From a virus (taxonomy: Duplodnaviria; Heunggongvirae; Uroviricota; Caudoviricetes), in IMG/VR virus record IMGVR_UViG_3300013105_000002, positions 64,001 to 128,000 of that record: a stretch of 64,000 bases of DNA; one strand, written 5' to 3'. Of the stretch, positions 910-64,000 are shown piece by piece. Numbering within the stretch: the stretch's first letter is position 1; every line of letters begins with the position of its first letter. The notes under the pieces are model-generated. The model searched no databases. It saw nothing but the letters and a program-made list of their open reading frames with translations, and was not told the DNA's origin. A program made the translations under genes and the position numbers.

Positions 910-3900
910 TTGAAGACGGTAACAACGGCGACAAGCAATGAACTGAAGCAGTCATATGACGTAAACACTACAGCCCGCTTGATCGCAGAATGGAACATGA
1001 ACAGGTACTCGCCAATCTCTGTTGTACGCAATACTGCGGCAGCATTGGAGGATGGCGATGCTGACCTGTACCCAATTTCATCCATCGTTCTACCGCACCG
1101 CCCAACATCTTCTGGAATTGTGAAGGCCCGTGCCAACAGCGCTGCTCGCGCTGGATACAGCCCTGACGGATACACGTCTAGCGGCTATAAGAAGACGCCC
1201 GGTGCTGCTCGCTACGTCACTGCAAGCCCAGACTCAAAGTACAAGTATTGGTCATCACCAAATGAGTCTGCTGGCGGTAGCGTGGGTCCGACCTTCTCAA
1301 ACATGACAAACACGCAGCCTACCGTGATCTACTCAAACAACACGTGGACGAACAAGATTTTCGTACGCATCGAGAACTCATATTCATTCCCTACGGCATG
1401 GACCGTGGAGACGACGACGGACGGTACCAACTGGACCACCGTTTCCACCAACCCTACGATTGCCTCAAATGGCGCGGTGTCACTGTGGCGTCAGGCCAAC
1501 GGCTCTTGGGGAACAACGCCATACTACGACAACCCTACACAGTTGCGCGGTGTGCGTATCACTGTTACCCAGATGAACCGTTCAAAGGTGTATTTCAACC
1601 TTATCGAGTTGGGCCTACGCCTAGAGTCTGACCTGTCTGCATACATGATTGACTGGGAAGTCAACAACAGCATGTCAGAATACTCCTTCATCACACCGCT
1701 GGGAACGGCATCTGCAAATGATGGCTCTGTCACGCTAGCCAACTTCGACAACAGATTCTCCAATGACAACCCGTCATCGATGTACTTTGGCCTCATCGAC
1801 AAGAACGTAACCATGCGTCTTGATCTTGGAATCACCACCGATGCCTACACGGCCACTACCAAGAACTACGAATGGATTCGTATGTTCACCATGCGCACCG
1901 AAGACTGGAATGGCAAGGACTTGGACGTGGTGAGTGTTCCACTGAAGGACGATTCTGTCGTGCTTCAGGCAATCAAGCCAAACCCAACGCTTCTAGAGTC
2001 AAAGACTGTTGCTGAAATCATCTGGACCCTGCTGGATGGAATCGGCATGACCAACTACTTCGTTCAGGTCATCGACGCTGACGCCACCACCCTGATTCCG
2101 TACTTCTGGACTGACGGTACGGAGACGATGTGGGATATCATTCAGAAGTTGTCTCAGGCCACGCAGACGGCTGTGTATTTTGACGAGTACAACGTCTTGC
2201 AGATCAAGACGCGTAGCACCGCCTATGATTTGACAGCCACCCCTGTGTGGCAGTTCGACGGTGTTGTCAACGGCACCAAGTTGCCGGATATCGTTGATCT
2301 GGACAAGACCAACAACTTCGAAGCAAATGTGGTAAACGTGGCCTACAAGGACACCAAGCCAGCCGATGAGGTTTCTGGTATTGCTCCCATGCAGTCAATG
2401 TGGGAGCCTGAGGGTGACGTTGTGCTGCGTGCAGCACCGCTAGTTCACTCAATCACCACCACCTCACCGTCACTTCGCATTGACCCTTCTGCTGCAAAGA
2501 CATGGCCTTACGCTGGACTGATTCAGGTCGAGGGCGAGTTCATCCGTTACACGGCCAAGGGCTACTCATACTACCTTGCAAATGGTACGCTGACCTCAAA
2601 GTACATTGCCAGCAATGACGAGAAGATTGCGCTGGACAAGTTGAACCCAAATCTCTCTTACCAGAACGCATTCAATGGCTACCTGTGGACACCAGTGCGC
2701 GGTGAGTTCAGCAGTGCACCAAAGGCTCACACCATCGATGCTGCTGGATACACCACCAGACTGAAGACTGGAAACGGAACCATGAATCCATGGACCGGAG
2801 GATGGAAGGCTGTCAGTGGAAAGTCCATTGCCAGAATCACCACCAACTCAACATTCAAGGCTTCTACGTGGTATACCGTAACACACGGTTCTGAGTTTGA
2901 CTCACCTCCGTACTACTACGGTACCCGAATTCGATTCCCGAACGAGGGATACAACGGTGGTCTGGGTGGTCTCGTGATCAGCGCGGGTGGCACTGGCGAT
3001 GCAGGCTACTACATCGAACTATGCCGTACGTCTTTGTTCTCAAAGTACCCTACGTGGAGAAGTTCTGTAAACGAACTGTCATTCTACGTTCGCTATGCTG
3101 ACGGAACCATGAAGCGCCTTGGCGCAAACGGAAACAAGGGAACGATTGCAAATATCGCGCCGGGTGTGTGGTATGACCTTGACGTCACTGTTTCCTACAA
3201 TGCCTCCATCCCTACATTCAACATCTTCCTTAACGGTGTTCTTCAGATGAACGTCACCGTTCCATCAGCCATGCGTCCACCAACTGGAAACACTGGTCGC
3301 TGGGGTGTGTTCACGCGTGGATACACAAATGCAGAGTTTGAGTACGTCTACGCATCATCGTCAAATGAGGCAGTGAACTTCGATGGCACTGCTCGCTACA
3401 ACCGTATTGATGGTGGATACCAGTCTGATCAGGTAACCTCTGAATGGATTTACAACACTCGTAACGTCATCAGAATGTACCGTAACAAGAAGACCAGCGT
3501 CATTCAGCGTTACAACCAGTTCTTCTTCGATGACTTCGGTGCCACTGTGCATGAGGTCAGAGAGTTCAACGTAAAGTACAATGTGGCTACCGATACCGGG
3601 CCTGCGCTGTATTCCAAGATTTACTTCAGCAATGACTCTCAGGTCGTGTGCCCTGAGTTCATCCCGAACCCATTTGGTGCCAAGTTCATTCTTGCAAACG
3701 CAAGCCGTATCAATGCCGTGGTAAACGGAAACGATGCTGTGACCTATGGTCCAGAGAATGCTGTTGACCAGAAGTTGATGGTTTACGGACGAGCAATCAA
3801 GGTTGGTGAAGAGAAGATCAAGACGACCCGCAACGAGAATGCAATTCTACGACGCGGTGAGGTGGCTGTGGACTTCCCTTCAGACTTCATCCAGTCAGAG

Positions 3901-8400: not shown

Positions 8401-11400
8401 ATGCCAAGCGCTACAAACACTGTAGTTACTGAAACATGGACGACATACTCTGACGTATTCAATGCAGGAATCATGAATCCTGCATTGCAGGCTGTAACAA
8501 CTACTGGAAACGCTTCTTGGACAACTGGTATGCCACCGGGAACTGCAAAGATTCGTGTTGGCTGGCTTCTAAACTACCCTTCTGGTGGTGGAAAGTTGGC
8601 TGTAGCATCAGTATCTCTTTCAGACGCTGCTGCTGCACAGGCTGCTGCCGCGACCGCTCAGTCAACTGCTGATGGCAAGAACAAGATTATCCGTACAACG
8701 GCTGACGCCGCCGGTACAAGCGGATATGTTACTGGCGACCTCTGGTGGAAGTTGGACGGTTCTGGCAATGTCATCAAGCAGTGGAAGTACACTGTAGGAA
8801 CTGGTTGGACCGTAGAAACACTGATGGACGGTGTTCTCGGAAGCCTGACCGCTAACAAGATTTCTGCCGGAAGCACGTTCACTAATGACCTAGGCGTCAA
8901 GAGCACCTTCACGCTTGGAGACGCAACGACTCCGGGTGTCATCAAGTCATACGACTATGCAGCAAACACGACCGGCTTCACACTTTCATCTGCTGGTCTT
9001 CAGATCAACAACGGTGATATCGATGCCAAGACGCTTCGTGCAAACTCATCATTCGTCACCAACCTGTTCATCGGCACGGGCGGTGCCATTCAGTCTACTG
9101 GTTACTCTTCTGGTGTAACTGGATTCCGTTTGAGCAACACCGGGCTGATCATCGAAGGTGCAGGAAACACTGTTAGCGCATCTGTCCTAAAGGGTGGAAC
9201 CATCACTGGTACCACGATCACGGTTGGCGCGGGCGGTGTGCTTATTGTTGACTCTACCGCTGCAATCCGTTCAAACAACTATGCAATCGGTTCTACTGGA
9301 TACCGAATGGACGCCACTGGCCTAGAGGTCAACGATGGATCAATCGATGCAAAGGCACTGAAGACCAACACGGCTGTTATCGGTGACCTTACCATTGGTC
9401 GTTCTGCCGACTCACTTGGTACGCTGAAGTCATTTGACTACAGCGCCGGTACGGCTGGATGGAAGATCGGTAAGGGTCTATTCGAAATCAATCAAGGTGT
9501 CATTCGCGCTCCTGCTTTGCAGATTCAGTCTGGTGCATCAAACCTAGAGCGTCCAGAGTATTCAGCGTTTGAGTTTGGCACAAACTTCTACACTGGAAAG
9601 TTCTCTACTGCAAACGCTACAACATCAATTCAGACTTCAGGTGGCGTTCAGGGAAACCAGTTCCTACGAGTTTCAACGACAACTGCTGCCGCTGCATCAT
9701 GCGTAATTGGAGACACGGCAACCGACTACCACGTATCTGTAGAGGCTGGAAAGACCTACATCATTTCTGCTTGGATGAAGGCTGCTACTGCCACTGCTCA
9801 GTCTGCGTACCTGCGACCACGATACAGTGATGGATCGTTTGGCTCTGGTGGTGGAGCGACCCCTTCACTTCCGGGCAGCGGCGCATGGGCAAGATACTCA
9901 TGGGCATACACTGTTCCTACTGGAATCACAAATCTAGTTGTTCAGTTGTTCAACAACTCAACAACCGCTGGTGCTGGTGTTGACATTGATGGCTTGATGA
10001 TCGAGCAGCAGGTTGGTGGATTGACCACTCCTTCAACATATGTAATGCCGGGTATGACTTCTGCCGATGGTGGATTCCTACGCACTGGTCAGATTGTGTC
10101 AAACGCAAATGTCACGGTCAACGGAGCCCAGCAGCCTGCATGGAGCATCAACCTCTCTGGTGGTGCTCAGTTCGGTGATGCTGCAATTCGTGGATCGCTG
10201 GTTGTTGGTCCAAGCACTACCACCAACCTTGCACCGGGATCAGGTAACTTCGAAAGCAACGTAACCGGATACACGGCATATGCTGTTGGCGGTACTGGCG
10301 TTGCGCTGACACGTACTACCACCGTTGGTGAACTGATTACCGGAACAGGCTCTATGAAGGTCGGATGGACCACAACTCCATCGAAGTATGGTTTCAGCAT
10401 CAGCCTGATCAACGGTACGGTCAGCCCTGCCGGTATCCCTGCGAACAACGTTGTAAAGATTGCAATGAAGGTTCGTGGTCTGAACACTGGATCAAGCGCC
10501 GGTATCGATGTATATGCTGAGTTCTTGGATGGCTCAAACAACGTTGTCTACACGACTCCGAACATGCTGCCTACCCCAACGTACCTTGTTCCGAACACGG
10601 TAATGACGATCAACTACAATGCCGTGCTTCCTGCCGGTATTGCCAATGCAGCAAGCGTACGCATCGTTACCACAAAGACGAACACCACGCCAGACTCAAC
10701 TGGAATCATCTATGACGACGTTTCAGTTTCTGCTTCTGATGACATGGGCGGATCGTTCATTTCCTCTGGAAACTACGTTGTCAACGACTCTGGTTGGAAG
10801 ATCACCTCTGGCGGTATTGCAGAGTTCAACAACGTTATCATCCGAGGTGGATTTGAGTCTGCAACCAGCGGCCTACGTTGGAGAATTGGTACTACCCCAC
10901 AGTGGTACGGAAACACCGCAGAAATCACCGCTTACAACCCAAGCGCTGGTGTTACAGATTCTGGTAAGTTGCTGGCTAACCCCGGCGGTATCTATATGTA
11001 TGGTGCTCAGGCAGCAGATGTTGCTGGACGCCCATACATTAGCGTATCAAACCAGAACTTCCTAGACACTGCTCCTAACTTGTACAAGGGTCTTTTGAAC
11101 ATGGAGGCAAGTAGCATCAGAATCACCGGAACCGATGGTCCTGCCGCAAATGGTTCCAAGTATGGTTCTCAGATCAACATTGATGCAAACCCGGACAGCG
11201 CCGCATCGCCATATAACTCAGCAAGCCTGCATTTGCGCTCGGTGGGTATCGACGGACCAGCGTCATTTGTTGGAAGCGCACAGGGAGAAATGTACCTGCT
11301 CAGCGATGGTGGTACAGGAAGCACGACTTCAAAGTTGACGCTTGCTGTAAATGGATGGTTTGGTGGATCAGCCGAGTCAAGCATCATCCTACAGAGAAAC

Positions 11401-38155: not shown

Positions 38156-38345
38156 CAGGCTCTACATCGTTTCAGAGCGAAACGGTGTACGCAAATTCAT
38201 CAGGCAGCCCTCAGGAAAATGGGTTTGCAGGGGAACAAATCTTTCAGCCACGGATGTAGAGGTTCGTGTGACAATCAAATTCCGTAAATGCTTTCTGGCT
38301 CGCGCCGGTAGCGACGTGATAGAAGGGCATCTAGACAATGAGTGA
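38136..38345 (+). CDS. Hypothetical protein
   Basis: 69-aa ORF. Confidence 0.55.
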   Translation: MTFKDGDRLYIVSERNGVRKFIRQPSGKWVCRGTNLSATDVEVRVTIKFRKCFLARAGSDVIEGHLDNE

Positions 38346-39030
38346 CGAGTACCACAAGATCAATGCGCCATACAAGCGCGACAAGAAGGGCGTAATGCTC
38401 CAAGGTGATTGGTGCATGCCCGAACTGGAATATCTCGCAGAGAATGAGTGGGAGTTCACCGAGAAGGTGGACGGTACCAACATTCGTCTGACGTTCAACC
38501 GCTATGGTGGTTTCAACATTGCTGGACGCACTGACAATGCTCAGACTCCCAAGCCACTGCTGCACCACCTTGAAGACCTGTGTTCCTCACTGAGCGACAA
38601 CGTGGTTGCCGTCATGGAGCAGCACGACATTGGTGAACTTACCGTGTATGGTGAGGGCTATGGTCCAAAGATCAATGGCGGTGGAAAGTACGGTGATGCT
38701 CCACGATTCGTGGCTTTCGACGTACGCGTTGGAGACTTCTGGCTTATGCGCAAGGACGTGGATGACTTTGGTGACAAGACTGGCTTCGACACTGTGCCGG
38801 TGGTCTTCACTGGTAACCTGTGGAGCGGTTTTGGCATGGTTGCAAATGGCTTTTCCCGTGACCTTGCTGGCAACTTCATCGACATGCGATCCAAGGGGCA
38901 CGCCGGTATGAGGTCAGCGTGGGGGGACTTTGAGGCTGAGGGACTTATCGCTGTTCCCAAGGTTCCCCTGTTCACTCGATCTGGTAAGCGCGTCATTACC
39001 AAGATCAAGCACGTGGACTTCCGCCGATGA
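38338..39030 (+). CDS. ATP-dependent RNA ligase (Rnl2-like)
   Basis: TEKVDGTNIR (motif I), YGEGYG (III), FDV (IIIa), EGLI (IV), KIK (V). Confidence 0.85.
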   Translation: MSDEYHKINAPYKRDKKGVMLQGDWCMPELEYLAENEWEFTEKVDGTNIRLTFNRYGGFNIAGRTDNAQTPKPLLHHLEDLCSSLSDNVVAVMEQHDIGELTVYGEGYGPKINGGGKYGDAPRFVAFDVRVGDFWLMRKDVDDFGDKTGFDTVPVVFTGNLWSGFGMVANGFSRDLAGNFIDMRSKGHAGMRSAWGDFEAEGLIAVPKVPLFTRSGKRVITKIKHVDFRR

Positions 39031-40713: not shown

Positions 40714-40988
40714 TTGTTGGAAGGGAACGCATGGTGCGGCGGCGAGAGAAACCTCGGCGCAGACAAACAAAGTGAGTTCGACTCTCACGCCAGTCCAACG
40801 GTTCGAACCCCAAAGTCGCGGGGTGTAGGGCCAAACGCCTGCTGAGAAGCATACGTAATAAATGCGCTGGCGTTCAGTGGAGTAGGTGGAGGTTGAAACT
40901 AGTTAAAGCCATAGAAGCCTTTGATCCCACTGAATGACCAAACTTGATATACTGGTAACAAAGTGGTCCCGGTAATAAACCGCCACTT
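40714..40988 (+). ncRNA. Unidentified structured RNA with a T-arm-containing 5' domain
   Basis: No + strand ORF. GTTGGA/TCCAAC closure, GTGAG-TTCGACT-CTCAC T arm, ACGCCAG/CTGGCGT and TTCAGTGG/CCACTGAA pairings. Confidence 0.55.
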
Positions 40989-41129: not shown

Positions 41130-41390
41130 ATGTCTACAGATACGCTAGAACTCATTGAAATGGACCTGAATCTCGATATCAGGCCGGTATGTGAGGATGC
41201 GGCCAACAATGACGGCAATGAGGCACAATGGATTACCCGTCACCCCGGCTGTTCGTATCTGATTTGCACGGTGTGCAAGACCGAGGACCAGAGTGTTGTC
41301 AATGAGTGTATTCAGGATGGAACAGAAGCGTGGTGCGGACAGTGCAACACAATGTTCCAGCCAGAGGAACTGAAGTTCATTCCTCTCTAG
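41130..41390 (+). CDS. Cys-rich hypothetical protein
   Basis: 86 aa; CTVC and CGQC. Confidence 0.6.
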   Translation: MSTDTLELIEMDLNLDIRPVCEDAANNDGNEAQWITRHPGCSYLICTVCKTEDQSVVNECIQDGTEAWCGQCNTMFQPEELKFIPL

Positions 41391-41420
41391 TTGACAGACA
41401 GTAGATCAGGATGCTACACT
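41391..41420 (+). promoter_or_regulatory. Sigma70-type promoter
   Basis: TTGACA-N18-TACACT; GTAGATCA/TGATCTAC inverted repeat straddles the -10. Confidence 0.7.
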
Positions 41421-41434
41421 TGATCTACTCACAT

Positions 41435-41506
41435 AGGGACGAGCGTAGGTTGAGTCACAGAGCCTCCAAAACTCTAGTGCGATGGGTTCGAATCCCTCCG
41501 TCCCTG
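41435..41506 (+). tRNA. tRNA-Trp(CCA), atypical D arm
   Basis: AGGGACG/CGTCCCT, loop CT CCA AA, T arm; D stem pairs poorly. Confidence 0.75.
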
Positions 41507-41527
41507 CTCAACAACTAAATAATCGAT

Positions 41528-41602
41528 GGCCTAGGTGACTGTTGGATTGTGTCACTTCCCTGTCACGGAAGCATGAAGCGGGTTCGATTCCCGTCTAGGT
41601 CG
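41528..41602 (+). tRNA. tRNA-Asp(GTC)
   Basis: GGCCTAG/CTAGGTC, CTTCC-CT GTC AC-GGAAG. Confidence 0.9.
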
Positions 41603-41699
41603 CGCAAAGAGAGAAGGAAAGGTATTGGTCTGAGGCTTCGGCTATTCAACCTCTAACCACCCGGCAGACGCCGAAGCATTGCTAATGCGCTCTTTCAAT

Positions 41700-41771
41700 C
41701 GGAATGTACGCAAGAGGTATGCGGTTTGCTTTGGGAGCAAAAAGTCGGGGGTTCGAATCCCTCCATTCCGA
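41700..41771 (+). tRNA. tRNA-Pro(TGG)
   Basis: CGGAATG/CATTCCG, TTTGC-TT TGG GA-GCAAA. Confidence 0.92.
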
Positions 41772-41839
41772 CGTGAAGCACGGGTTCGAATCCCGGTGCC
41801 CGGTATATGGGTATAGTGTATAGGAGCACACGCCGTCAC
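41772..41839 (+). ncRNA. Circularly permuted tRNA-like element (T arm, closed acceptor stem, D arm; YrlA-like topology)
   Basis: CGGG-TTCGAAT-CCCG, then TGCCC-ggtatat-GGGTA, then TA-GTGT-atagga-GCAC. Confidence 0.55.
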
Positions 41840-41852
41840 TTAAAGGAGAATA

Positions 41853-42161
41853 ATGGCAGACAAGAACGATGCAGTCGCTAAGGTGGTTGCAGAGGATGGT
41901 TTGGAGACTTGGGTCGGACAGATCGAAGCGCTTGTTTCAGACATTGCTGAGTCAATTAAGGAAGAGGCCGACGAGAAGTACGCCGTTAGGGATGGCGAGG
42001 CTCTATTCCTGAATGTCAATGCAATTGCGATCTACGCACATGCTATGCATATGCACGCAATATTTCTCAATGAGTCAGGAAGGCCAGAACTAGCAGATTC
42101 AGTCACACAGCATGTGATTGCTTTGGCTACTCTGGTAGAAGAGGCTCAAAAGCGCTCTTGA
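41853..42161 (+). CDS. Hypothetical protein
   Basis: 102 aa, AAGGAG RBS. Confidence 0.7.
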   Translation: MADKNDAVAKVVAEDGLETWVGQIEALVSDIAESIKEEADEKYAVRDGEALFLNVNAIAIYAHAMHMHAIFLNESGRPELADSVTQHVIALATLVEEAQKRS

Positions 42162-42187
42162 CAGAAGACTTGGTTCCAGTCTATAAT
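42158..42187 (+). promoter_or_regulatory. Sigma70-type promoter
   Basis: TTGACA-N18-TATAAT; TTGGTTCCA/TGGAACTAA inverted repeat around the -10. Confidence 0.8.
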
Positions 42188-42198
42188 GGAACTAACAT

Positions 42199-42273
42199 GG
42201 TGGTATAGCCAAGTCTGGTGAAGGCAATGCTCTGATAAGGCATGATGCGTTGGTTCAAATCCAACTACCACTA
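42199..42273 (+). tRNA. tRNA-Ile(GAT)
   Basis: ATGCT-CT GAT AA-GGCAT, GTTGG-TTCAAAT-CCAAC. Confidence 0.88.
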
Positions 42274-42286
42274 CGTAACAAAATAT

Positions 42287-42358
42287 GGTCCTATCGCCAA
42301 GTGGTAAGGCATCTGTTTTACACACAGACATGCGGGAGTTCGATTCTCTCTGGGACTA
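42287..42358 (+). tRNA. tRNA-Val(TAC)
   Basis: GGTCCTA/TGGGACT, TCTGT-TT TAC AC-ACAGA. Confidence 0.9.
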
Positions 42359-42684: not shown

Positions 42685-42767
42685 GGAAGGTCGGCAATTG
42701 GCGTAGCACACAGTCTTGAAAACTGCTAAGGGTAAAACCGATGTGGGTTCGACTCCCTCACCTTCCG
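42685..42767 (+). tRNA. tRNA-Ser(TGA)
   Basis: GGAAGGT/ACCTTCC, G73, loop CT TGA AA, long variable arm; weak D arm. Confidence 0.85.
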
Positions 42768-42773
42768 CCCAAA

Positions 42774-42811
42774 AAGGGCTGGTGGATGCTTTCGGGCGCA
42801 CCAGCCCTTTT
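42774..42811 (+). terminator. Rho-independent terminator
   Basis: AAGGGCTGGTG...CACCAGCCCTT followed by TT. Confidence 0.7.
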
Positions 42812-42832
42812 CTATACCCAAAGGAGGATGAC

Positions 42833-43318
42833 ATGGAACTACTATTCAGCACACCGCATGGATCACGTCTGTATGGCCTGCACCATGCGAACTCTGACCA
42901 TGACCGCATGGAGGTTTATGGTTTCAACAAGTTCAGGCCAAAGCAAAAAATCATCGGTGATGATGATGTTGTCAAGGCATCACTAGACAAATTCCTGCTG
43001 TACTGTGACAAGGGTGTGCCCCAGTATCTTGAAGCCATGTTCTCCGAGCAGGCCACTGTGAACCGCATAGAATTCATCACGGACACCTACATGCCCAACA
43101 TGACACACATGAGAGACACGTATTTTAGAACCATCAAGTCGTTCTGGATGTTCGGTGTTGAGAACGATGACCACAAGAGGCGGCGGCATGCACTGAGGCT
43201 CTTGCTCAACTTGCGCGAAGCCCATGAACGTGGTAGATTCAACCCAACATTGACAGCCGAGCAGGCTAGACAGGTCACCATCGATGCTGATAGACTGACG
43301 GAGTTGCCCGACTTTTAG
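42833..43318 (+). CDS. Pol-beta superfamily nucleotidyltransferase (RlaP-like)
   Basis: HGSRLYGL....SDHD minimal NTase motif (GS...DxD); AAGGAGG RBS. Confidence 0.8.
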   Translation: MELLFSTPHGSRLYGLHHANSDHDRMEVYGFNKFRPKQKIIGDDDVVKASLDKFLLYCDKGVPQYLEAMFSEQATVNRIEFITDTYMPNMTHMRDTYFRTIKSFWMFGVENDDHKRRRHALRLLLNLREAHERGRFNPTLTAEQARQVTIDADRLTELPDF

Positions 43319-57614: not shown

Positions 57615-58502
57615 ATGACCGTTTTCATCACCGTTGGTGCGCCTGCCAGTGGCAAGTCCACGTGGGCTATCGAGTACGCCAATGAGTTCGGAAACACGAT
57701 GATCACGTGCCGTGACGACATTCGCGCTACCTATGGCATCACCAAGTTCGGTGACAAGGAAACTGAGCAGTTCCTGACAGACGTTCAGCGTGCCCAGATG
57801 GAGGGTGCATTTGCTGCCGGAATGGACGTTATCGTTGCAGACACCAACATCAACAGGCGTTTCCGTAATCAGTTGGTCAAGTTCGCTCATGAGCACGCTC
57901 AGGACGTTGAACTGGTCACCTTCTACGAGCCTCTTGACGTTCTCATCATGAGGGATGCGGCGCGTGAGCGTACGGTCGGTGCTGATGTTATCACGAAGTT
58001 CTACAACGACCTCAACAGTCAGGAAATCATTGATATCCTGCTGCCGCACCCTCGTGCTCTGAAGTACAAGCACAACGAGGCAAGCCCCGAGGCAATTGTC
58101 GTTGACATTGACGGCACTGTTGCTGACCACAAGGGGGTTCGCTCTCCATACGACGAGTCGAAGGTCGGCCTTGACAACCCGAAGTACGATGTTATCAGCG
58201 TTGTCAAGGCTCTTGCCGAGCGTTTCGCCGTCATCTTTGTTTCGGGTCGCAAGGACTCGTGCGAGGCTGAGACGCGTGCGTGGATCGAGAAGCACTTCGA
58301 TTTCACGAATGGTGACTACTTCCTGCACATGAGGAAGCACGGTGACGATCGTCCTGATTACCGAATCAAGGCTGATCTGTATGACCAGAAGGTTATCCCC
58401 AACTGGAACATCAGAATGGTCTTTGACGACCGCGATCAGGTTGTTCGTCACGTTCGCAAGCGCGGTATCACCGTTGCTCAGGTTGCACCGGGCCACTTCT
58501 GA
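57615..58502 (+). CDS. Polynucleotide 5'-kinase / 3'-phosphatase (T4 Pnkp/PseT-like)
   Basis: GAPASGKST, RDDIR, VADTN, DIDGT, SGR and FDDRDQVV motifs. Confidence 0.93.
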   Translation: MTVFITVGAPASGKSTWAIEYANEFGNTMITCRDDIRATYGITKFGDKETEQFLTDVQRAQMEGAFAAGMDVIVADTNINRRFRNQLVKFAHEHAQDVELVTFYEPLDVLIMRDAARERTVGADVITKFYNDLNSQEIIDILLPHPRALKYKHNEASPEAIVVDIDGTVADHKGVRSPYDESKVGLDNPKYDVISVVKALAERFAVIFVSGRKDSCEAETRAWIEKHFDFTNGDYFLHMRKHGDDRPDYRIKADLYDQKVIPNWNIRMVFDDRDQVVRHVRKRGITVAQVAPGHF

Positions 58503-61146: not shown

Positions 61147-61175
61147 TTGACACCCAGAACTTGGCGTGTTATTCT
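61147..61175 (+). promoter_or_regulatory. Sigma70-type promoter
   Basis: TTGACA-N17-TATTCT, then AAGGAG RBS. Confidence 0.75.
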
Positions 61176-61207: not shown

Positions 61208-63304
61208 ATGTCCAACACTGCATTTATGTTCCGACGCACCCGCAAGGTTCTCGTCCCGATGCGCCGCGCGGCTGGAAAGAACGCTGCGCTCGTTGCGTCG
61301 TTCGATGCAAACCTGCGCCGTCTGGGATTTGCGCTGGACGCTGACGCCGTGAAGGCCCTTCTTGACGTGCCCGCATCTGACTTCGGCGGTATCGCCAATG
61401 ACGTGATTGCCGAGGCAAAGCGTATCAAGGGTGTCAAGCGTTATTCCCCTATGTATCCCAACTTCCCCAAGCAGGTTATGGAGGCGTCTGACGCTGAACT
61501 GTACCTGAACGCCATCATGCACTACTACGGTGACATGGTTGGTCTTCGCATCCTGCCTGTCTACGAGAAGGCAGAGCGTCCCGAACTGGACTTCGATGAG
61601 TCTCGATTCAAGAAGGTCGGTGTGGCGTACCAGCAGGACTTCTTTGCCACGATCATGTCTGTGGTAAACCAGAAGGCTGGCTACGGTGAGCAGGAGCGAG
61701 AGGATATCTCTGAGTTCTGGGAGCACCTGATGCAGCAGCCTCAGGGCGAGTTCAATTTCGGCAACCGTGAGAACAAGGCGTGGTTTGCTGCAAAGGCTTA
61801 CCGTTACCTGAAGTTCTTTCCAATGGGCGAGGTATTCAAGTTCGACACAGCCACCGACGTTCTGCGTTTCGCTGTTGCCCTGTGTGATGGCGATGTGTCC
61901 CTTGCTGAGAAGACTCGGTTCAAGTCCTTCGCTCGTTCTGAGCGTCGTCTCATCCTTGGTCTTTTCAACCAGATCAATGGTCTGGATGAGGATTTTGCTC
62001 GTCGTCCTGAGACGTTCAAGCGTCTTGGCGAGCGTCTGCACCCTCGTGAGTACAGCGCTCAGTTCCCCATTGCCGCATCTGCCTTTGCAACGGTTCGTGA
62101 CAACAAGCGCAAGCCTGTCACGTTCAACAGCGCTGTCGAGAATGCTCTTTCAAGTGGTGCCACGTCTGCTGCTGTTTCTCTACTGAAGACTCGCCCCGGT
62201 GAGTTTGCGCGTCGTCTCGATGAGGTACTACGCTCTGCCAACAACATTACGCAGGCCCGTGCATTTGTCAAGGCGTTCGATGCTGTCGCTGCTCAGGTGT
62301 CCGCACCTGTGCTTCTTCAGGCTCGTGCTGCCCTTCAGGCTGACCGTGGTGGAAACCGAATCTTCTTCCCGAAGGGCAACGTTTCCAAGTTCAAGGCGAT
62401 CCCTGACACTCGTGGTGACATTGACCTTTCTGTCCGCAATGCGGCGGTGGAGGCGTGCAACAAGGGTCTCGTGGCTCGCTTCAGCGAGAAGGGTTCTCTG
62501 GGCAAGGTGTATGTTGACTCCGCTCTGGACGGCGTAACCGTTCCGCTGACGATTCGTGATGCCTCAAAGGGTCGCGTTCTTGGTCGTGGTTCTCGTATGC
62601 CGTTCAACGAAAAGACCAATGTTCTTCGATTCTTCATCTGGTGGAAGGACATTGACATTGGTGGCCGGAACGGTCGTGTAGACATTGACCTTTCTGCTGT
62701 GCTGCTGGATGACAACTTCAACACGGTGGAGGCTGTGGCCTACTACAACCTCCGTGGTCTGGGTGCTACGCACTCTGGTGATATTACGTCTGCTCCGCAC
62801 GGAGCAAGCGAGTTCATCGACATTGATCCTGCAAAGGTTCTAGAGCGCGGTGCGCGTTATGTCGCCATGACCGTTCACTCCTTCAGCCGTCAGAATCTTT
62901 CGGATATTCCTGAGGTGTTTGCTGGTTACATGGAGCGAAACGACCACGATTCGGGAGAGGTCTACGATCCTCGTACGGTCGAAAACCGTGTTGACCTGAC
63001 GACTCCTACGACCAACTCCGTTCCTTATATCTTCGATATGAAGACGGGTGAGGCCATCTGGATCGACATGGCGCTGCGCCTCGGTGGCTATGGCTACGGT
63101 GGTAACAACGCTGCCAGCACGTCGCTGACCACAGAAAACCTTGTGAGTGCGGTCGTTCGCAAGAACTACCCATCGCTCGGTGATCTATTTAGACTGCACG
63201 CAAAGGCTCGCGGTACGCTGGTTGACAGCCCCGCCGAGGCTGATGTAGTCTTCAACCTAGACAACGCATTCCGCACTGAAGAGGTGCTTGACAAGTACCT
63301 CTGA
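61208..63304 (+). CDS. TROVE/Ro-like alpha-helical repeat + TerD-domain protein
   Basis: 698 aa. YSPMYPNFP.QV, TATDVLR.A, LL..RPGEFARRLD helical region; C-terminal RFFIWW..RVDIDLS...HSGDITSAP.GASEFIDID TerD fold. Matches the described RING-TROVE-like-TerD architecture without the RING. Confidence 0.8.
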   Translation: MSNTAFMFRRTRKVLVPMRRAAGKNAALVASFDANLRRLGFALDADAVKALLDVPASDFGGIANDVIAEAKRIKGVKRYSPMYPNFPKQVMEASDAELYLNAIMHYYGDMVGLRILPVYEKAERPELDFDESRFKKVGVAYQQDFFATIMSVVNQKAGYGEQEREDISEFWEHLMQQPQGEFNFGNRENKAWFAAKAYRYLKFFPMGEVFKFDTATDVLRFAVALCDGDVSLAEKTRFKSFARSERRLILGLFNQINGLDEDFARRPETFKRLGERLHPREYSAQFPIAASAFATVRDNKRKPVTFNSAVENALSSGATSAAVSLLKTRPGEFARRLDEVLRSANNITQARAFVKAFDAVAAQVSAPVLLQARAALQADRGGNRIFFPKGNVSKFKAIPDTRGDIDLSVRNAAVEACNKGLVARFSEKGSLGKVYVDSALDGVTVPLTIRDASKGRVLGRGSRMPFNEKTNVLRFFIWWKDIDIGGRNGRVDIDLSAVLLDDNFNTVEAVAYYNLRGLGATHSGDITSAPHGASEFIDIDPAKVLERGARYVAMTVHSFSRQNLSDIPEVFAGYMERNDHDSGEVYDPRTVENRVDLTTPTTNSVPYIFDMKTGEAIWIDMALRLGGYGYGGNNAASTSLTTENLVSAVVRKNYPSLGDLFRLHAKARGTLVDSPAEADVVFNLDNAFRTEEVLDKYL

Positions 63305-63321: not shown

Positions 63322-63396
63322 TTGCAGGCTACGGGCAGTGCTTCCTTCTAAACACTTCAATTGGATGAAATCACTAGCGCTCTCACTCTCCTGCAA
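63322..63396 (+). ncRNA. Y-RNA-like repeat 1
   Basis: TTGCAGG/CCTGCAA stem, CTAC/ACTCT internal loop, AGTGCT/AGCGCT stem, loop TCCTTCTAA...AAATC. Confidence 0.65.
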
Positions 63397-63404
63397 AAAC
63401 AAAC

Positions 63405-63472
63405 GGTGGCTAAGGAATGGGCTTCCTTCTAATTGCTTACATCAATCAAATCTAGCCTTTCTACTCTCCACC
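63405..63472 (+). ncRNA. Y-RNA-like repeat 2
   Basis: GGTGG/CCACC stem, CTAA/ACTCT internal loop, GGGCT/AGCCT stem, same TCCTTCTAA...AAATC loop. Confidence 0.65.
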
Positions 63473-63514
63473 ACAAACTCAACATCTGGCAAGGTGCAAA
63501 GATACACTTACCCG

Positions 63515-63588
63515 GCCCGTAAGGGAGATAAGTTCTGGGTCGCAGTCCCAGCGCCAGAAGTGAGTGGTTCGAATCCACCATCACGGGC
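63515..63588 (+). ncRNA. tRNA-like element without D arm
   Basis: GCCCGT/ACGGGC, CTGGG-TCGCAGT-CCCAG, GTGG-TTCGAAT-CCAC. Confidence 0.5.
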
Positions 63589-63607
63589 TTGACACAAGGA
63601 GTACAGT

Positions 63608-63730
63608 ATGGAAGAGTTACCTCCGTTAGACGAGGACTGGCAAGAAGAAATAACATTAGAACAGTCTATTGAGGACAAGGCAATTATGGATGGAATCCTT
63701 CGTCCAAATTGGAGAGACTATACGTCTTGA
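63608..63730 (+). CDS. Small acidic hypothetical protein (absent from ORF track)
   Basis: 40 aa, AAGGAG RBS. Confidence 0.45.
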   Translation: MEELPPLDEDWQEEITLEQSIEDKAIMDGILRPNWRDYTS

Positions 63731-63765: not shown

Positions 63766-64000
63766 GGGGCCGACAGGTTTCGACAGACATAACTAAACAT
63801 GGTTCTCAGTCATGATTGGACAGATCATTAAAAGGTCCAAAACAACAAATGCAATGGACAACATTGTTTCCGCATCGATGGAAAACATCGATGCCGAGTA
63901 CGAGGCGCTTGTCGCTGAGTTCTCGCTTGTCACTGTCTGAAAGATAAACAAGGATGGGGCACGATACCGCCTTATTAACCAAGAGTATCAAAACACAGTT
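63766..64000 (+). ncRNA. ssrA: tmRNA (3' end beyond the window)
   Basis: 5' GGGGCCGACAGGTTTCGAC signature; tag frame from AAAT-GCA at 63851 to TGA at 63940. Confidence 0.9.

What the first reader, a model, noticed from the sequence alone, without database searches (positions are those of the whole stretch)
41772..41839. Circularly permuted tRNA mimic with YrlA-type topology directly after tRNA-Pro
Seen: the order is T arm (CGGG-TTCGAAT-CCCG, 41781-95), acceptor-like stem closed by a loop (TGCCC-ggtatat-GGGTA), TA, D arm (GTGT-atagga-GCAC), with weak closing pairs GACGT/ACGCC. The 3' half of a tRNA therefore precedes the 5' half. Established: bacterial YrlA Y RNAs have this permuted T, acceptor-stem, D arrangement and partner Ro60 proteins; permuted tRNA genes also exist in algae and archaea. 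Inference: a Y-RNA-like effector domain or decoy. It lacks an obvious Ro-binding stem, but the window encodes a TROVE-like protein at 61208.
Basis: partly seen in the sequence, partly recalled or inferred. Interest (0 to 1): 0.75.

Follow-up and report, generated by a model that had tools for sequence, protein, structure and literature searches.

The report
Sealed, permuted tRNA look-alike RNA
Right behind a phage proline tRNA gene lies a conserved 68-base RNA that folds like a tRNA body with its acceptor end sealed and no anticodon arm. It is a stripped-down relative of bacterial YrlA "Y RNAs", and similar modules recur in other phage tRNA arrays, including three near-complete genomes with no Ro60 (TROVE) gene.

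Summary
Window 41772-41839 reads T arm, loop-closed acceptor-like hairpin, UA, D arm. That is a circularly permuted tRNA body placed directly after tRNA-Pro(UGG) and 13 nt before a 102-aa ORF.

- **Selection:** folding energy alone is not significant (z -0.75). Four related uncultured phages keep the element. Against the most distant one the ORF is 70.5% identical, tRNA-Pro 87.7% and the element 94.1%, and all four differences are compensatory T-stem changes.
- **Class:** a covariance model built only from 11 unrelated IMG/VR modules finds the element as the best hit in the window (38.2 bits, E 6e-10).
- **Not YrlA proper:** Rfam YrlA scores about 10 bits against a cut-off of 69. There is no GNCGAAN(0-1)G motif, no long basal stem and no TROVE gene in the complete genome.
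- **The 61208 protein:** it is a TerD protein with only a weak Ro-like fold. In two other phages its homologs carry such a module inside an adjacent "handle" RNA. Here the module has no handle and lies 19 kb away.

Most likely it is a free tRNA-elbow mimic, acting as decoy or adaptor. The function is inferred, not shown. This scan has reported permuted tRNA-like RNAs in other phage tRNA arrays before.

The parts
41391..41420 (+). Sigma-70-like promoter (TTGACA, 18 nt spacer, TACACT) heading the transcription unit that holds the element
   Evidence: Consensus scan, 10 of 12 matches. It is invariant in the relatives. The next promoter-like site is at 42158-42187.
41435..41506 (+). tRNA-Trp(CCA)-like gene, first RNA of the unit
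   Evidence: Rfam tRNA scores it 18.8 bits, below the cut-off, and ARAGORN misses it. It is nearly invariant in the relatives.
41528..41603 (+). tRNA-Asp(GTC)
   Evidence: ARAGORN and Rfam at 31.2 bits.
41604..41699 (+). Optional 96-nt hairpin insert between tRNA-Asp and tRNA-Pro
   Evidence: Folds at -29.3 kcal/mol, z -1.7. It is present in the window and L010, and replaced by a short spacer in L003 and L006.
41700..41771 (+). tRNA-Pro(UGG) with no encoded CCA. The element starts at the next base.
   Evidence: Rfam 64.2 bits and ARAGORN.
41772..41779 (+). 5' lead CGTGAAGC. It corresponds to the closing-stem 5' strand plus the variable-region equivalent.
   Evidence: CGTGAAG is invariant in all four lineages. 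GACG (41770-73) pairs with CGTC (41834-37) in the minimum-energy fold and in the R2 alignment.
41780..41796 (+). T arm: 5-position stem (A.G mismatch plus 4 bp) and canonical loop TTCGAAT
   Evidence: Sequence. Compensatory changes occur in the relatives: ACAGG/CCTGT, GCAGG/CCTGC and GTGGG/CCCGC.
41797..41813 (+). Acceptor-like hairpin sealed by a 5-nt loop (TGCCCG-GTATA-TGGGTA)
   Evidence: The relatives carry different sequences that still form a hairpin: CCAG-CACGCA-CTGG in L010 and GCTGGGC-TACAAT-GCCCGGT in L003.
41814..41829 (+). U8-A9 equivalent (TA) and D arm GTGT-ATAGGA-GCAC, with GG in the loop
   Evidence: The stem is invariant in the four lineages. An alternative register GTGT-ATAGGAGC-ACAC is also possible.
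41830..41839 (+). Position-26 purine plus the conserved 3' strand CGCCGTCAC (closing-stem 3' strand)
   Evidence: CGCCGTCAC is invariant in all four lineages.
41843..42161 (+). Shine-Dalgarno AAGGAG (41843-48) and a 102-aa acidic helical ORF (41853-42161) of unknown function
   Evidence: ORF list. No Pfam or PHROG hit. The family is limited to four protein clusters, all from these phages.
61208..63304 (+). 698-aa protein (712 aa from GTG at 61166): a helical N-terminal part plus a C-terminal TerD domain.
   Evidence: No Pfam hit. AlphaFold2 model pLDDT 82.5. Foldseek gives TerD at E 3e-7 and D. radiodurans Ro (2nvo) at E 0.029, TM 0.23/0.30.
63322..63472 (+). Two repeat units carrying the CTTCCTTCT motif just downstream of that gene ('handle' RNAs). 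They hold no tRNA-like module here.
   Evidence: Sequence. Units of the same type lie downstream of the homolog in G010, where one holds a permuted tRNA-like module.

Best explanation
Window 41772-41839 encodes a selected, tRNA-derived RNA module. It is a circularly permuted tRNA body (variable-region equivalent, T arm, acceptor stem sealed by a loop, U8-A9, D arm) with no anticodon arm and no free CCA end. Shown: it sits on the same strand with no gap after tRNA-Pro(UGG), in a unit headed by the promoter-like site at 41391. It is a divergent member of a class of roughly 70-nt sealed tRNA mimics found in phage tRNA arrays. The other members examined came from a scan that required a preceding tRNA-Pro end, so that placement is partly an ascertainment effect. 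Inferred: the 5' end of the module is freed when the tRNA-Pro 3' end is cut. The T loop (UUCGAAU) and D loop (GG) then form a tRNA elbow, so the RNA is recognised by a protein that reads the tRNA body. With a sealed acceptor and no anticodon loop it cannot be charged, decoded or cut as a tRNA. It would therefore act as a non-consumable tRNA mimic, either a decoy or an adaptor, for a still unknown tRNA-binding factor. It corresponds to the tRNA-like 'effector' domain of YrlA used without the Ro-binding half. In this phage lineage it also forms the structured 5' end of the downstream 102-aa ORF's message.
For: Structure and selection. The minimum-energy fold is the T / sealed-acceptor / D four-way junction in 3 of 4 variants. 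The T stem is 95% paired, with 2 of 5 pairs compensatory. Between the window and L006 the ORF is 70.5% identical, tRNA-Pro 87.7% and the element 94.1%, and all four differences fall in two T-stem pairs. The middle hairpin has been replaced by other hairpins in L010 and L003. Class membership. Model R2, built from 11 IMG/VR modules and none of this lineage, scores the element 38.2 bits (E 6e-10), the best hit in the window. It scores L006 44.5 bits and L010 31.1 bits. The window-derived model R1 finds foreign modules at E 3e-6. The class shows 86% paired cells and 18 of 22 pairs changed on both sides, with 0 of 500 shuffles reaching the observed values. Class members match Rfam YrlA only over its tRNA-like domain, positions 23-85, at 28-40 bits. 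Autonomy from Ro. TROVE is absent from G000 and from three near-complete or complete module-bearing genomes. The 698-aa family is absent from two of those three. Other members are flanked by tRNAs on both sides and occur in tandem runs of two or three, which fits a discrete, dosage-dependent small RNA. Literature. [quoted passage not shown]
Against: The binding factor is unknown. Folding energy is not better than shuffles. The closing stem is short (4 bp), borrows two bases of tRNA-Pro, and is invariant, so it is untested by covariation. No RNase P site defines a 3' end here, because an ORF rather than a tRNA follows, so the module may never be released as a free RNA. The L003 variant has lost the canonical T loop (TGCAATT) and the D-loop GG. 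Junctions of tandem tRNA genes also score up to 31.6 bits with R2, so the margin is only 6.6 bits. Class members were picked with a descriptor that required pairing, which inflates the covariation counts. The scan pattern required a preceding tRNA-Pro end, so the 'after tRNA-Pro' rule is partly an ascertainment effect.
Confidence: 0.5

Rival explanations
1. Cis-acting leader. The tRNA-shaped fold stays attached to the mRNA of the 102-aa ORF. It would serve as a processing landmark and 5'-end protector after tRNA-Pro is cut off, or as an operator for translational control, because it ends 3 nt before the Shine-Dalgarno sequence.
For: In all four close lineages the element is fixed between tRNA-Pro and this ORF, and its 3' strand through the Shine-Dalgarno sequence to the ATG is nearly invariant. 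No promoter-like site lies inside it, so the ORF must be expressed from the tRNA transcript. No downstream tRNA supplies an RNase P cut to free a 3' end. From established knowledge: plant mitochondrial t-elements and the thrS operator are precedents for tRNA mimics in mRNAs.
Against: In the other phages examined the same kind of module is followed by a tRNA or a terminator-like hairpin, not by an ORF (L184, L185, L259, L226, L294). The fold is therefore not tied to a message. Any hairpin would protect a 5' end, so this does not explain conservation of tRNA-specific loops. The ORF product is acidic and looks unlikely to bind RNA.
Confidence: 0.2
2. The module is the effector (tRNA-like) domain of a Y-RNA-like partner of the Ro-like TerD protein encoded at 61208-63304.
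For: In G010 a perfect module is inserted in the second handle unit, about 140-210 nt downstream of the 746-aa homolog. In cultured Rhodococcus phage Weasels2, the third of four handle units downstream of the homolog gp266 holds a module that R2 scores 56.1 bits, E 8e-16. The helical half of the protein has D. radiodurans Ro as its best specific fold match. L184 and L185, which carry modules after tRNA-Pro, also encode this protein.
Against: The window module has no handle motif (CTTCCTTCT) and no basal stem. It lies 19 kb upstream of the gene, while the two handle RNAs beside the gene lack a module. G001 (97% complete) and G006 (100% complete) have modules but no such protein. The fold match to Ro is weak (TM 0.23/0.30), and the sequence tests for TROVE are negative.
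Confidence: 0.15
3. Neutral scar. The element is the leftover junction of two tandem tRNA-Pro genes (the 3' half of one plus the 5' half of the next) with no function of its own.
For: The T half, including its acceptor strand GTGCCCG, resembles the 3' half of one tRNA-Pro(UGG) of the distant relative L181. The D half resembles the 5' half of L181's other tRNA-Pro(UGG). Relatives L181, L184 and L185 carry two tRNA-Pro(UGG) genes where this phage has one. Junctions of tandem tRNAs score with both models. Chen et al. 2014 also flag dimeric tRNAs as false positives.
Against: The element is more conserved (94.1%) than tRNA-Pro (87.7%) and the ORF (70.5%) between the window and L006, and its only changes are compensatory. 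The hairpin is kept despite wholesale sequence replacement. L184 and L185 keep both intact tRNA-Pro genes and a module as well. It outscores every tandem junction in the window.
Confidence: 0.1
4. True permuted tRNA gene. The ends would be joined by the phage RNA ligase, and the acceptor loop then opened by RNase P and RNase Z to give a working tRNA, as in Cyanidioschyzon merolae.
For: From established knowledge: RNase Z and RNase P cuts at the flanking tRNAs would leave a 5'-phosphate and a 3'-hydroxyl, the ends that ATP-dependent RNA ligases need. The phage encodes an RNA ligase, RlaP and PNKP.
Against: There is no anticodon loop. In the window the 3' flank runs into a Shine-Dalgarno sequence and an ORF. 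In the cleanest class member (L259) the two tails would join to give a 9-nt loop with no proline-like anticodon context. Acceptor stems vary from 4 to 9 bp, often closed by tetraloops, and would be poor RNase P substrates.
Confidence: 0.02

Closest known systems
YrlA, the tRNA-like bacterial and mycobacteriophage Y RNA bound by Ro60/Rsr (Rfam RF02553; Chen et al. 2014, PMC4201824; structure: bioRxiv 10.1101/312249)
   Same: Same arm order: variable region, T arm, loop-closed acceptor-like stem, D arm. Both have a canonical T loop and GG in the D loop. In both, the acceptor-like stem varies in sequence but stays a hairpin. [quoted passage not shown] Sister modules hit the YrlA model over positions 23-85.
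   Different: There is no Ro-binding half: no GNCGAAN(0-1)G motif and no long basal stem. No Ro60/TROVE gene lies within 4 kb or anywhere in the genome. The Rfam score is about 10 bits against a cut-off of 69. The element is only 68 nt, abuts a tRNA gene and is fused to an mRNA leader.
Handle-plus-module RNAs beside Ro-like TerD protein genes (G010 locus L226; Rhodococcus phage Weasels2 downstream of gp266), seen here and, as related families, in earlier notes of this scan
   Same: The same permuted tRNA-like module. R2 scores Weasels2 56.1 bits and the window 38.2 bits. The same protein family is encoded in this genome.
   Different: In those RNAs the module is an insert in a repeat unit that carries a conserved handle motif next to the protein gene. 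Here the module is handle-less and lies in the tRNA cluster.
Junctions of tandem tRNA genes (dimeric tRNA precursors)
   Same: The same linear order: T arm, acceptor 3' strand, spacer, acceptor 5' strand, D arm. This is probably the evolutionary source of the element.
   Different: In the element the two acceptor strands pair with each other, and the outer halves of both tRNAs are absent. It is conserved as a unit and scores above the real junctions.
Circularly permuted tRNA genes of Cyanidioschyzon merolae and other algae and archaea (from my own knowledge; reviewed in PMC4090602, which appeared in the search but which I did not read)
   Same: The 3' half of the tRNA precedes the 5' half, joined by a short intervening sequence at the acceptor end.
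   Different: Those genes encode complete tRNAs with an anticodon loop, restored by endonuclease and ligase through a circular intermediate. This element has no anticodon arm.
Two-piece (permuted) tmRNA genes (Rfam RF04321) and plant mitochondrial t-elements
   Same: Permuted tmRNA precursors also run T arm, acceptor 3' strand, loop, acceptor 5' strand. t-elements are tRNA-like folds inside mRNAs that are used as processing signals.
   Different: The element has no tag reading frame or pseudoknots, and no CCA-ready acceptor. t-elements keep an open acceptor end that RNase P and RNase Z cut.

Membership tests
YrlA (Rfam RF02553) | Arm order T stem-loop, acceptor-like stem-loop, D stem-loop, with tRNA-like conserved loop nucleotides | tested here: met
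   Sequence and fold. The T loop is TTCGAAT, the U8-A9 equivalent is TA, and the D loop holds GG. The Levitt 15:48 pair is not canonical (U:C).
YrlA (Rfam RF02553) | Score at or above the Rfam gathering threshold (69 bits) | tested here: not met
   No YrlA hit in 41300-42300 at E <= 10. The whole-genome scan gives a best score of 15.2 bits elsewhere, and 10.1 bits at 41744-41799, out of register.
YrlA (Rfam RF02553) | GNCGAAN(0-1)G motif near the 5' end and a basal stem formed by the 5' and 3' ends (the Ro60-binding module) | tested here: not met
   The 5' lead is only CGTGAAGC and holds no such motif. The closing stem is 4 bp. For contrast, Streptomyces phage Genie2 has GTCGAATG upstream of a T arm near its Ro-like gene.
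YrlA (Rfam RF02553) | Encoded within about 4 kb of a Ro60 (TROVE) gene on the same strand | tested here: not met
   No TROVE (PF05731) match at E <= 1 in the six-frame search of the complete 131-kb genome; the control genomes did match.
YrlA (Rfam RF02553) | Bound by Ro60/Rsr; modified by TruB and DusA | not testable with these tools
   Needs immunoprecipitation and modification mapping.
Handle-less sealed tRNA-like modules of phage tRNA arrays (class defined here: alignment A9, model R2) | Significant match to a model built from members outside this lineage | tested here: met
   R2 scores the window 38.2 bits (E 6e-10), the top hit in the window, and L006 44.5 bits. The best tandem-tRNA junction scores 31.6 bits.
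Handle-less sealed tRNA-like modules of phage tRNA arrays (class defined here: alignment A9, model R2) | Closing stem of 4-6 bp at the anticodon-stem position, not overlapping the upstream tRNA | tested here: inconclusive
   The window has GACG/CGTC, which uses two tRNA-Pro bases, or alternatively GTGA/TCAC. All of these bases are invariant, so there is no covariation to test. In the class this helix is the weakest, at 65% paired.
Handle-less sealed tRNA-like modules of phage tRNA arrays (class defined here: alignment A9, model R2) | Lies in a tRNA array, directly after a tRNA (mostly tRNA-Pro) | tested here: met
   It starts at the base after tRNA-Pro(UGG). L184 and L185, found without requiring tRNA-Pro, show the same placement. 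The IMG/VR set was ascertained with a pattern that included the tRNA-Pro 3' end.
Functional circularly permuted tRNA gene | An anticodon stem-loop can be restored by joining the transcript ends | tested here: not met
   No anticodon loop sequence is present on either flank. The 3' flank is a Shine-Dalgarno sequence and an ORF. In L259 the joined tails would give a 9-nt loop.
Ro60 / TROVE protein (for the 61208 gene) | Pfam TROVE domain, or sequence similarity to known Ro proteins | tested here: not met
   No Pfam hit. BLASTP against the Genie2 Ro-like protein gives E 0.16. The fold match to 2nvo is only weak: E 0.029, TM 0.23/0.30.

The most novel reading that the evidence does not exclude
Free, handle-less, acceptor-sealed tRNA bodies form a widespread class of phage small RNAs that work without any Ro-type protein. 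They would be made in bulk from tRNA arrays (single, double or triple copies) and would act as non-consumable decoys or adaptors. The target would be a host factor that reads the tRNA elbow, for example a tRNA-targeting defence enzyme, or the phage's own RNA-repair enzymes. On this reading the tRNA-like 'effector' domain of Y RNAs is an autonomous functional unit whose target could now be fished out.
Probability: 0.2. Interest if true: 0.85.

Novelty: new variant of a known kind. Interest (0 to 1): 0.6.

Why it matters
The role of the tRNA-like domain of bacterial Y RNAs has been open since 2014. [quoted passage not shown] Here the same kind of domain occurs on its own, without the Ro-binding half. 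It is found in three near-complete or complete phage genomes that encode no TROVE protein, and in two other phages it is plugged into the handle RNAs of a different, Ro-like TerD protein. That pattern suggests the sealed tRNA body is a portable module with its own binding partner. It offers short natural baits of about 70 nt, including one in a cultured phage (Rhodococcus phage Weasels2), for finding that partner. It also warns annotators that T arms placed directly after phage tRNA genes are not always debris.

Tried and rejected
- **Promoter or operator reading.** No promoter-like site is predicted in or next to it, and hand inspection found no acceptable -35/-10 spacing. Rejected.
- **A normal tRNA on the minus strand.** The arm order would be canonical, but the T loop would read ATTCGAA, the middle loop lacks a purine at position 37, the acceptor stem would be 4 bp, and all neighbouring genes are on the plus strand. 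Rejected by inspection.
- **Searches for close relatives in IMG/VR.** I searched with the ORF, a 243-aa neighbour, PNKP and two exact DNA motifs. These gave nothing or only chance hits.
- **The single JGI metagenome scan.** I used an anchor pattern; 120 matches were returned and none was real.
- **Exhaustive profile search with the ORF family.** No further relatives were found.
- **INPHARED searches.** blastn and tblastn matched only the tRNA genes themselves. A three-module query found no named phage.
- **Rfam gathering scan of 14 module loci.** Only tRNAs were reported.
- **DUF2828 search.** Negative in five genomes, but there was no positive control, so this is not informative.
- **Streptomyces phages Genie2 and Wakanda.** They have no counterpart of the element. 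Their model hits were tandem tRNAs, a normal tRNA, or, in Genie2, a separate YrlA-like candidate beside its Ro-like gene.
- **Ligation into a working tRNA.** Considered and rejected; see the rival explanations.
Full report
**Setting.** The window is bases 64001-128000 of a complete 131,350-bp IMG/VR virus record with direct terminal repeats. GC content is about 50%. Only its tRNAs match named phages, mainly large Streptomyces phages of the Stanwilliamsviridae. Between 40.4 and 51.1 kb it carries a tRNA cluster: 19 ARAGORN genes in the window, 18 of them in that stretch, plus further tRNA-like RNAs. The cluster is interleaved with small ORFs. RNA-repair genes lie around it: an RNA ligase (38338-39030), RlaP (42716-43318) and PNKP (57615-58502).

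**The observation.**
- The T stem is 41780-84 / 41792-96. In the window it has an A.G mismatch plus 4 bp. The loop is TTCGAAT.
- The T stem runs straight into a hairpin, TGCCCG-GTATA-TGGGTA (41797-41813).
- Then come TA (41814-15), GTGT-ATAGGA-GCAC (41816-29), an A, and CGCCGTCAC.

In tRNA numbering this reads: variable region, T arm, acceptor 3' strand, a loop in place of free ends, acceptor 5' strand, U8-A9, D arm with G18-G19, and purine 26. The minimum-energy fold is this four-way junction, closed by GACG (41770-73) with CGTC (41834-37). Thermodynamics alone does not distinguish it from shuffled sequence (z -0.75). The case therefore rests on comparison.

**Transcription context.** A promoter-like site at 41391-41420 is followed by these RNAs, in order:
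- a tRNA-Trp-like RNA (41435-41506);
- tRNA-Asp;
- an optional 96-nt hairpin;
- tRNA-Pro(UGG), 41700-41771;
- the element;
- a Shine-Dalgarno sequence, AAGGAG (41843-48);
- a 102-aa ORF (41853-42161).

The next promoter-like site is at 42158. No promoter-like site lies within the element.

**Close relatives.** The ORF has homologs in only three further protein clusters (88%, 88% and 66% identity), on contigs of about 130 kb from ENA, Logan and JGI. All of them carry the element in the same place. There are four sequence variants.
- The T stem reads ACGGG/CCCGG, ACAGG/CCTGT, GCAGG/CCTGC and GTGGG/CCCGC. Cells are 95% paired, and two of five pairs change on both sides.
- The middle hairpin is identical in the window and the most distant relative, L006.
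- In L010 and L003 that hairpin is replaced by unrelated sequences that again form a hairpin directly after the T stem.
- The D stem and both flanking strands (CGTGAAG and CGCCGTCAC) are invariant.

The most telling comparison is window against L006. The ORF is 70.5% identical at the DNA level, tRNA-Pro 87.7% and the element 94.1%. All four differences in the element lie in two T-stem pairs and keep or improve pairing. That is purifying selection on an RNA structure, not neutral drift.

**Wider class.** I used homologs of the 698-aa protein to reach more distant phages.
- A T-arm-first module directly follows a tRNA-Pro(UGG) in L184 and in L185. In L185 the acceptor-like stem carries a large insert. 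L181 and L183 have no such module.
- In 16 of those loci an ARAGORN tRNA-Pro ends exactly at the pattern, and what follows is not called as a tRNA.

Parsing these, plus a descriptor scan of all held loci, gave a clean set with one architecture:
- a closing stem of 4-6 bp;
- a variable region of 4-5 nt;
- a canonical T arm;
- an acceptor-like hairpin of 5-9 bp, often closed by a tetraloop and sometimes carrying a 20-80-nt insert;
- UA;
- a D arm such as GCTC-AGCGGCA-GAGC;
- one purine, then the closing strand.

These modules occur singly or in tandem runs of two or three, typically between tRNA-Pro isoacceptors. One syntenic phage group has the order Trp, Ala(ggc), [candidate module], Ala(cgc), Pro(cgg), [1-3 modules], Pro(tgg), Phe, Gly, Lys. 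The Ala-Ala candidates carry 65-76-nt acceptor inserts and were not checked in detail.

On a MAFFT alignment of 11 such modules, 86% of cells pair and 18 of 22 pairs change on both sides. No shuffle out of 500 reaches the observed values, and slid registers score far lower. One caveat applies: the members were chosen by a descriptor that demanded pairing.

Model R2, built from these 11 with nothing from the window's lineage, finds the window element as the top hit in the window (38.2 bits, E 6e-10). It scores L006 44.5 bits and L010 31.1 bits. In the other direction, model R1 from the window lineage finds foreign modules at E 3e-6. Junctions of tandem tRNA genes also score, up to 31.6 bits with R2. 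Chen et al. noted the same false-positive class. The element stands above them, but not by a wide margin.

**Relation to YrlA.** Chen et al. 2014 define YrlA by four features:
- T, acceptor-like and D stem-loops in that order;
- tRNA-like conserved nucleotides;
- a GNCGAAN(0-1)G motif near the 5' end;
- a location within about 4 kb of Ro60 on the same strand.

The structural paper describes most YrlAs as circularly permuted tRNAs with closed acceptor stems. The element meets the first two features and fails the last two. Rfam's YrlA model gives about 10 bits here against a cut-off of 69. Cleaner class members do match that model, but only over positions 23-85, the tRNA-like domain, at 28-40 bits. 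The class is thus 'the YrlA effector domain without the Ro-binding half'.

**Protein partners.**
- TROVE is absent from this complete genome. It is also absent from three near-complete or complete module-bearing genomes: G001 (97%), G006 (100%) and G010 (100%). It is present in one fragment, G004.
- The 61208 gene product has no Pfam hit and no similarity to the Ro-like protein of Streptomyces phage Genie2. A confident AlphaFold2 model (pLDDT 82.5) shows a C-terminal TerD domain (Foldseek E 3e-7). Its helical N-terminal part has D. radiodurans Ro as its best specific match, but weakly (E 0.029, TM 0.23/0.30).
- This family has more than 2,400 members. It does associate with such modules elsewhere. 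In G010 a perfect module is inserted in the second of the CTTCCTTC-type repeat units just downstream of the homolog. In cultured Rhodococcus phage Weasels2 the third of four TTACTTC-type units downstream of gp266 carries one, which R2 scores 56.1 bits.
- In the window the two units beside the gene (63322-63472) have no module. The module at 41772 has no handle and lies 19 kb away.
- G001 and G006 have modules but not this protein.

The module therefore behaves as a portable unit that can be tethered to a Ro-like protein through a handle or can stand alone. In this window it stands alone.

**Origin.** The T half, including the acceptor strand GTGCCCG, resembles the 3' half of one tRNA-Pro(UGG) of the distant relative L181. 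The D half resembles the 5' half of L181's other tRNA-Pro(UGG), and also tRNA-Ala of L003 and L006. A junction of tandem tRNA-Pro genes is the probable ancestor. The three T residues in the 5' acceptor strand would be C-to-T changes that keep pairing as G.U; this step is inference.

**Mechanism.**
- Shown: a selected RNA structure of tRNA-body type, lying on the same strand directly after tRNA-Pro and in the same promoter-to-ORF unit; membership of a recurrent phage class; independence of the class from Ro60 genes in the genomes examined.
- Inferred: cutting of the tRNA-Pro 3' end frees the module's 5' end. The T and D loops form the elbow. A tRNA-body-reading factor binds the module but cannot use or destroy it, because the acceptor is sealed and there is no anticodon loop.

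I favour a free mimic, acting as decoy or adaptor, over the rivals. The rivals are a purely cis-acting leader, a partner of the TerD protein, a neutral scar, and a real permuted tRNA.

**Verdict.** The finding is real, conserved and unusual. It is a handle-less variant of the YrlA-type tRNA mimic. Its proposed link to a TROVE-like partner is mostly unsupported for this copy.

Noticed in passing
window 41604-41699: A 96-nt hairpin (-29.3 kcal/mol, z -1.7) lies between tRNA-Asp and tRNA-Pro. It is present in the window and L010 and replaced by a short spacer in L003 and L006, so it is an optional structured insert in the tRNA transcript.
   Followed up: partly
window 41435-41506: A tRNA-Trp(CCA)-like gene is missed by ARAGORN and falls below Rfam's cut-off (18.8 bits, with a C-A mismatch in the anticodon stem). 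It is almost invariant in the relatives and is the first RNA after the promoter.
   Followed up: partly
window 63505-63590: Another T arm that lies in no called tRNA (AGTGG-TTCGAAT-CCACC, T loop starting at 63568). It sits in a possible tRNA-like fold just upstream of a Shine-Dalgarno sequence and a small ORF starting near 63609. Other uncalled T arms are at 40777 and 44045.
   Followed up: no
L226 (IMG/VR contig G010) 700-990, minus strand: Downstream of a 746-aa homolog of the 698-aa TerD protein lie repeat units with a CTTCCTTC motif. The second unit carries a perfect permuted tRNA-like module (L226 781-850, minus strand) as an insert. This is a Y-RNA-like 'handle plus tRNA mimic' architecture for a non-TROVE protein.
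   Followed up: partly
L304 (Rhodococcus phage Weasels2, NC_041887) 3406-3794: Four repeat units with a TTACTTC motif lie downstream of gp266, the homolog of the 698-aa protein. The third unit holds a permuted tRNA-like module (L304 3606-3676; R2 56.1 bits). None of this is annotated in the record. This is a cultured phage in which the RNA could be tested.
   Followed up: partly
L179 1465-1570 (Streptomyces phage Genie2, MK359332, about 80508-80613): A candidate YrlA-type Y RNA (GTCGAATG motif, then a T arm ACGG-TTCGAAT-CCGT) lies about 500 nt upstream of the annotated Ro-like RNA-binding protein gp131. Rfam did not report it at E <= 1.
   Followed up: no
L277 468-755, minus strand (IMG/VR contig G006, 162 kb, 100% complete): Three permuted tRNA-like modules lie in tandem between tRNA-Pro(cgg) and tRNA-Phe. 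The first has an 81-nt insert in its acceptor-like stem. This genome has neither a TROVE gene nor the TerD-Ro-like protein.
   Followed up: partly
L196 (minus strand, oriented 604-739) and L201 (minus strand, oriented 9685-9810): Descriptor hits lie between tRNA-Ala(ggc) and tRNA-Ala(cgc), with 65-76-nt inserts in the acceptor-like stem. They suggest a second conserved module site in a syntenic phage group. They were not checked in detail.
   Followed up: no
window 38338-39030, 42716-43318, 57615-58502, 63766-64000: An RNA-repair and ribosome-rescue tool kit surrounds the tRNA cluster: RNA ligase (PF09414), RlaP nucleotidyltransferase (PF10127), PNKP kinase-phosphatase, and the start of a tmRNA gene that is cut by the window end.
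   Followed up: partly
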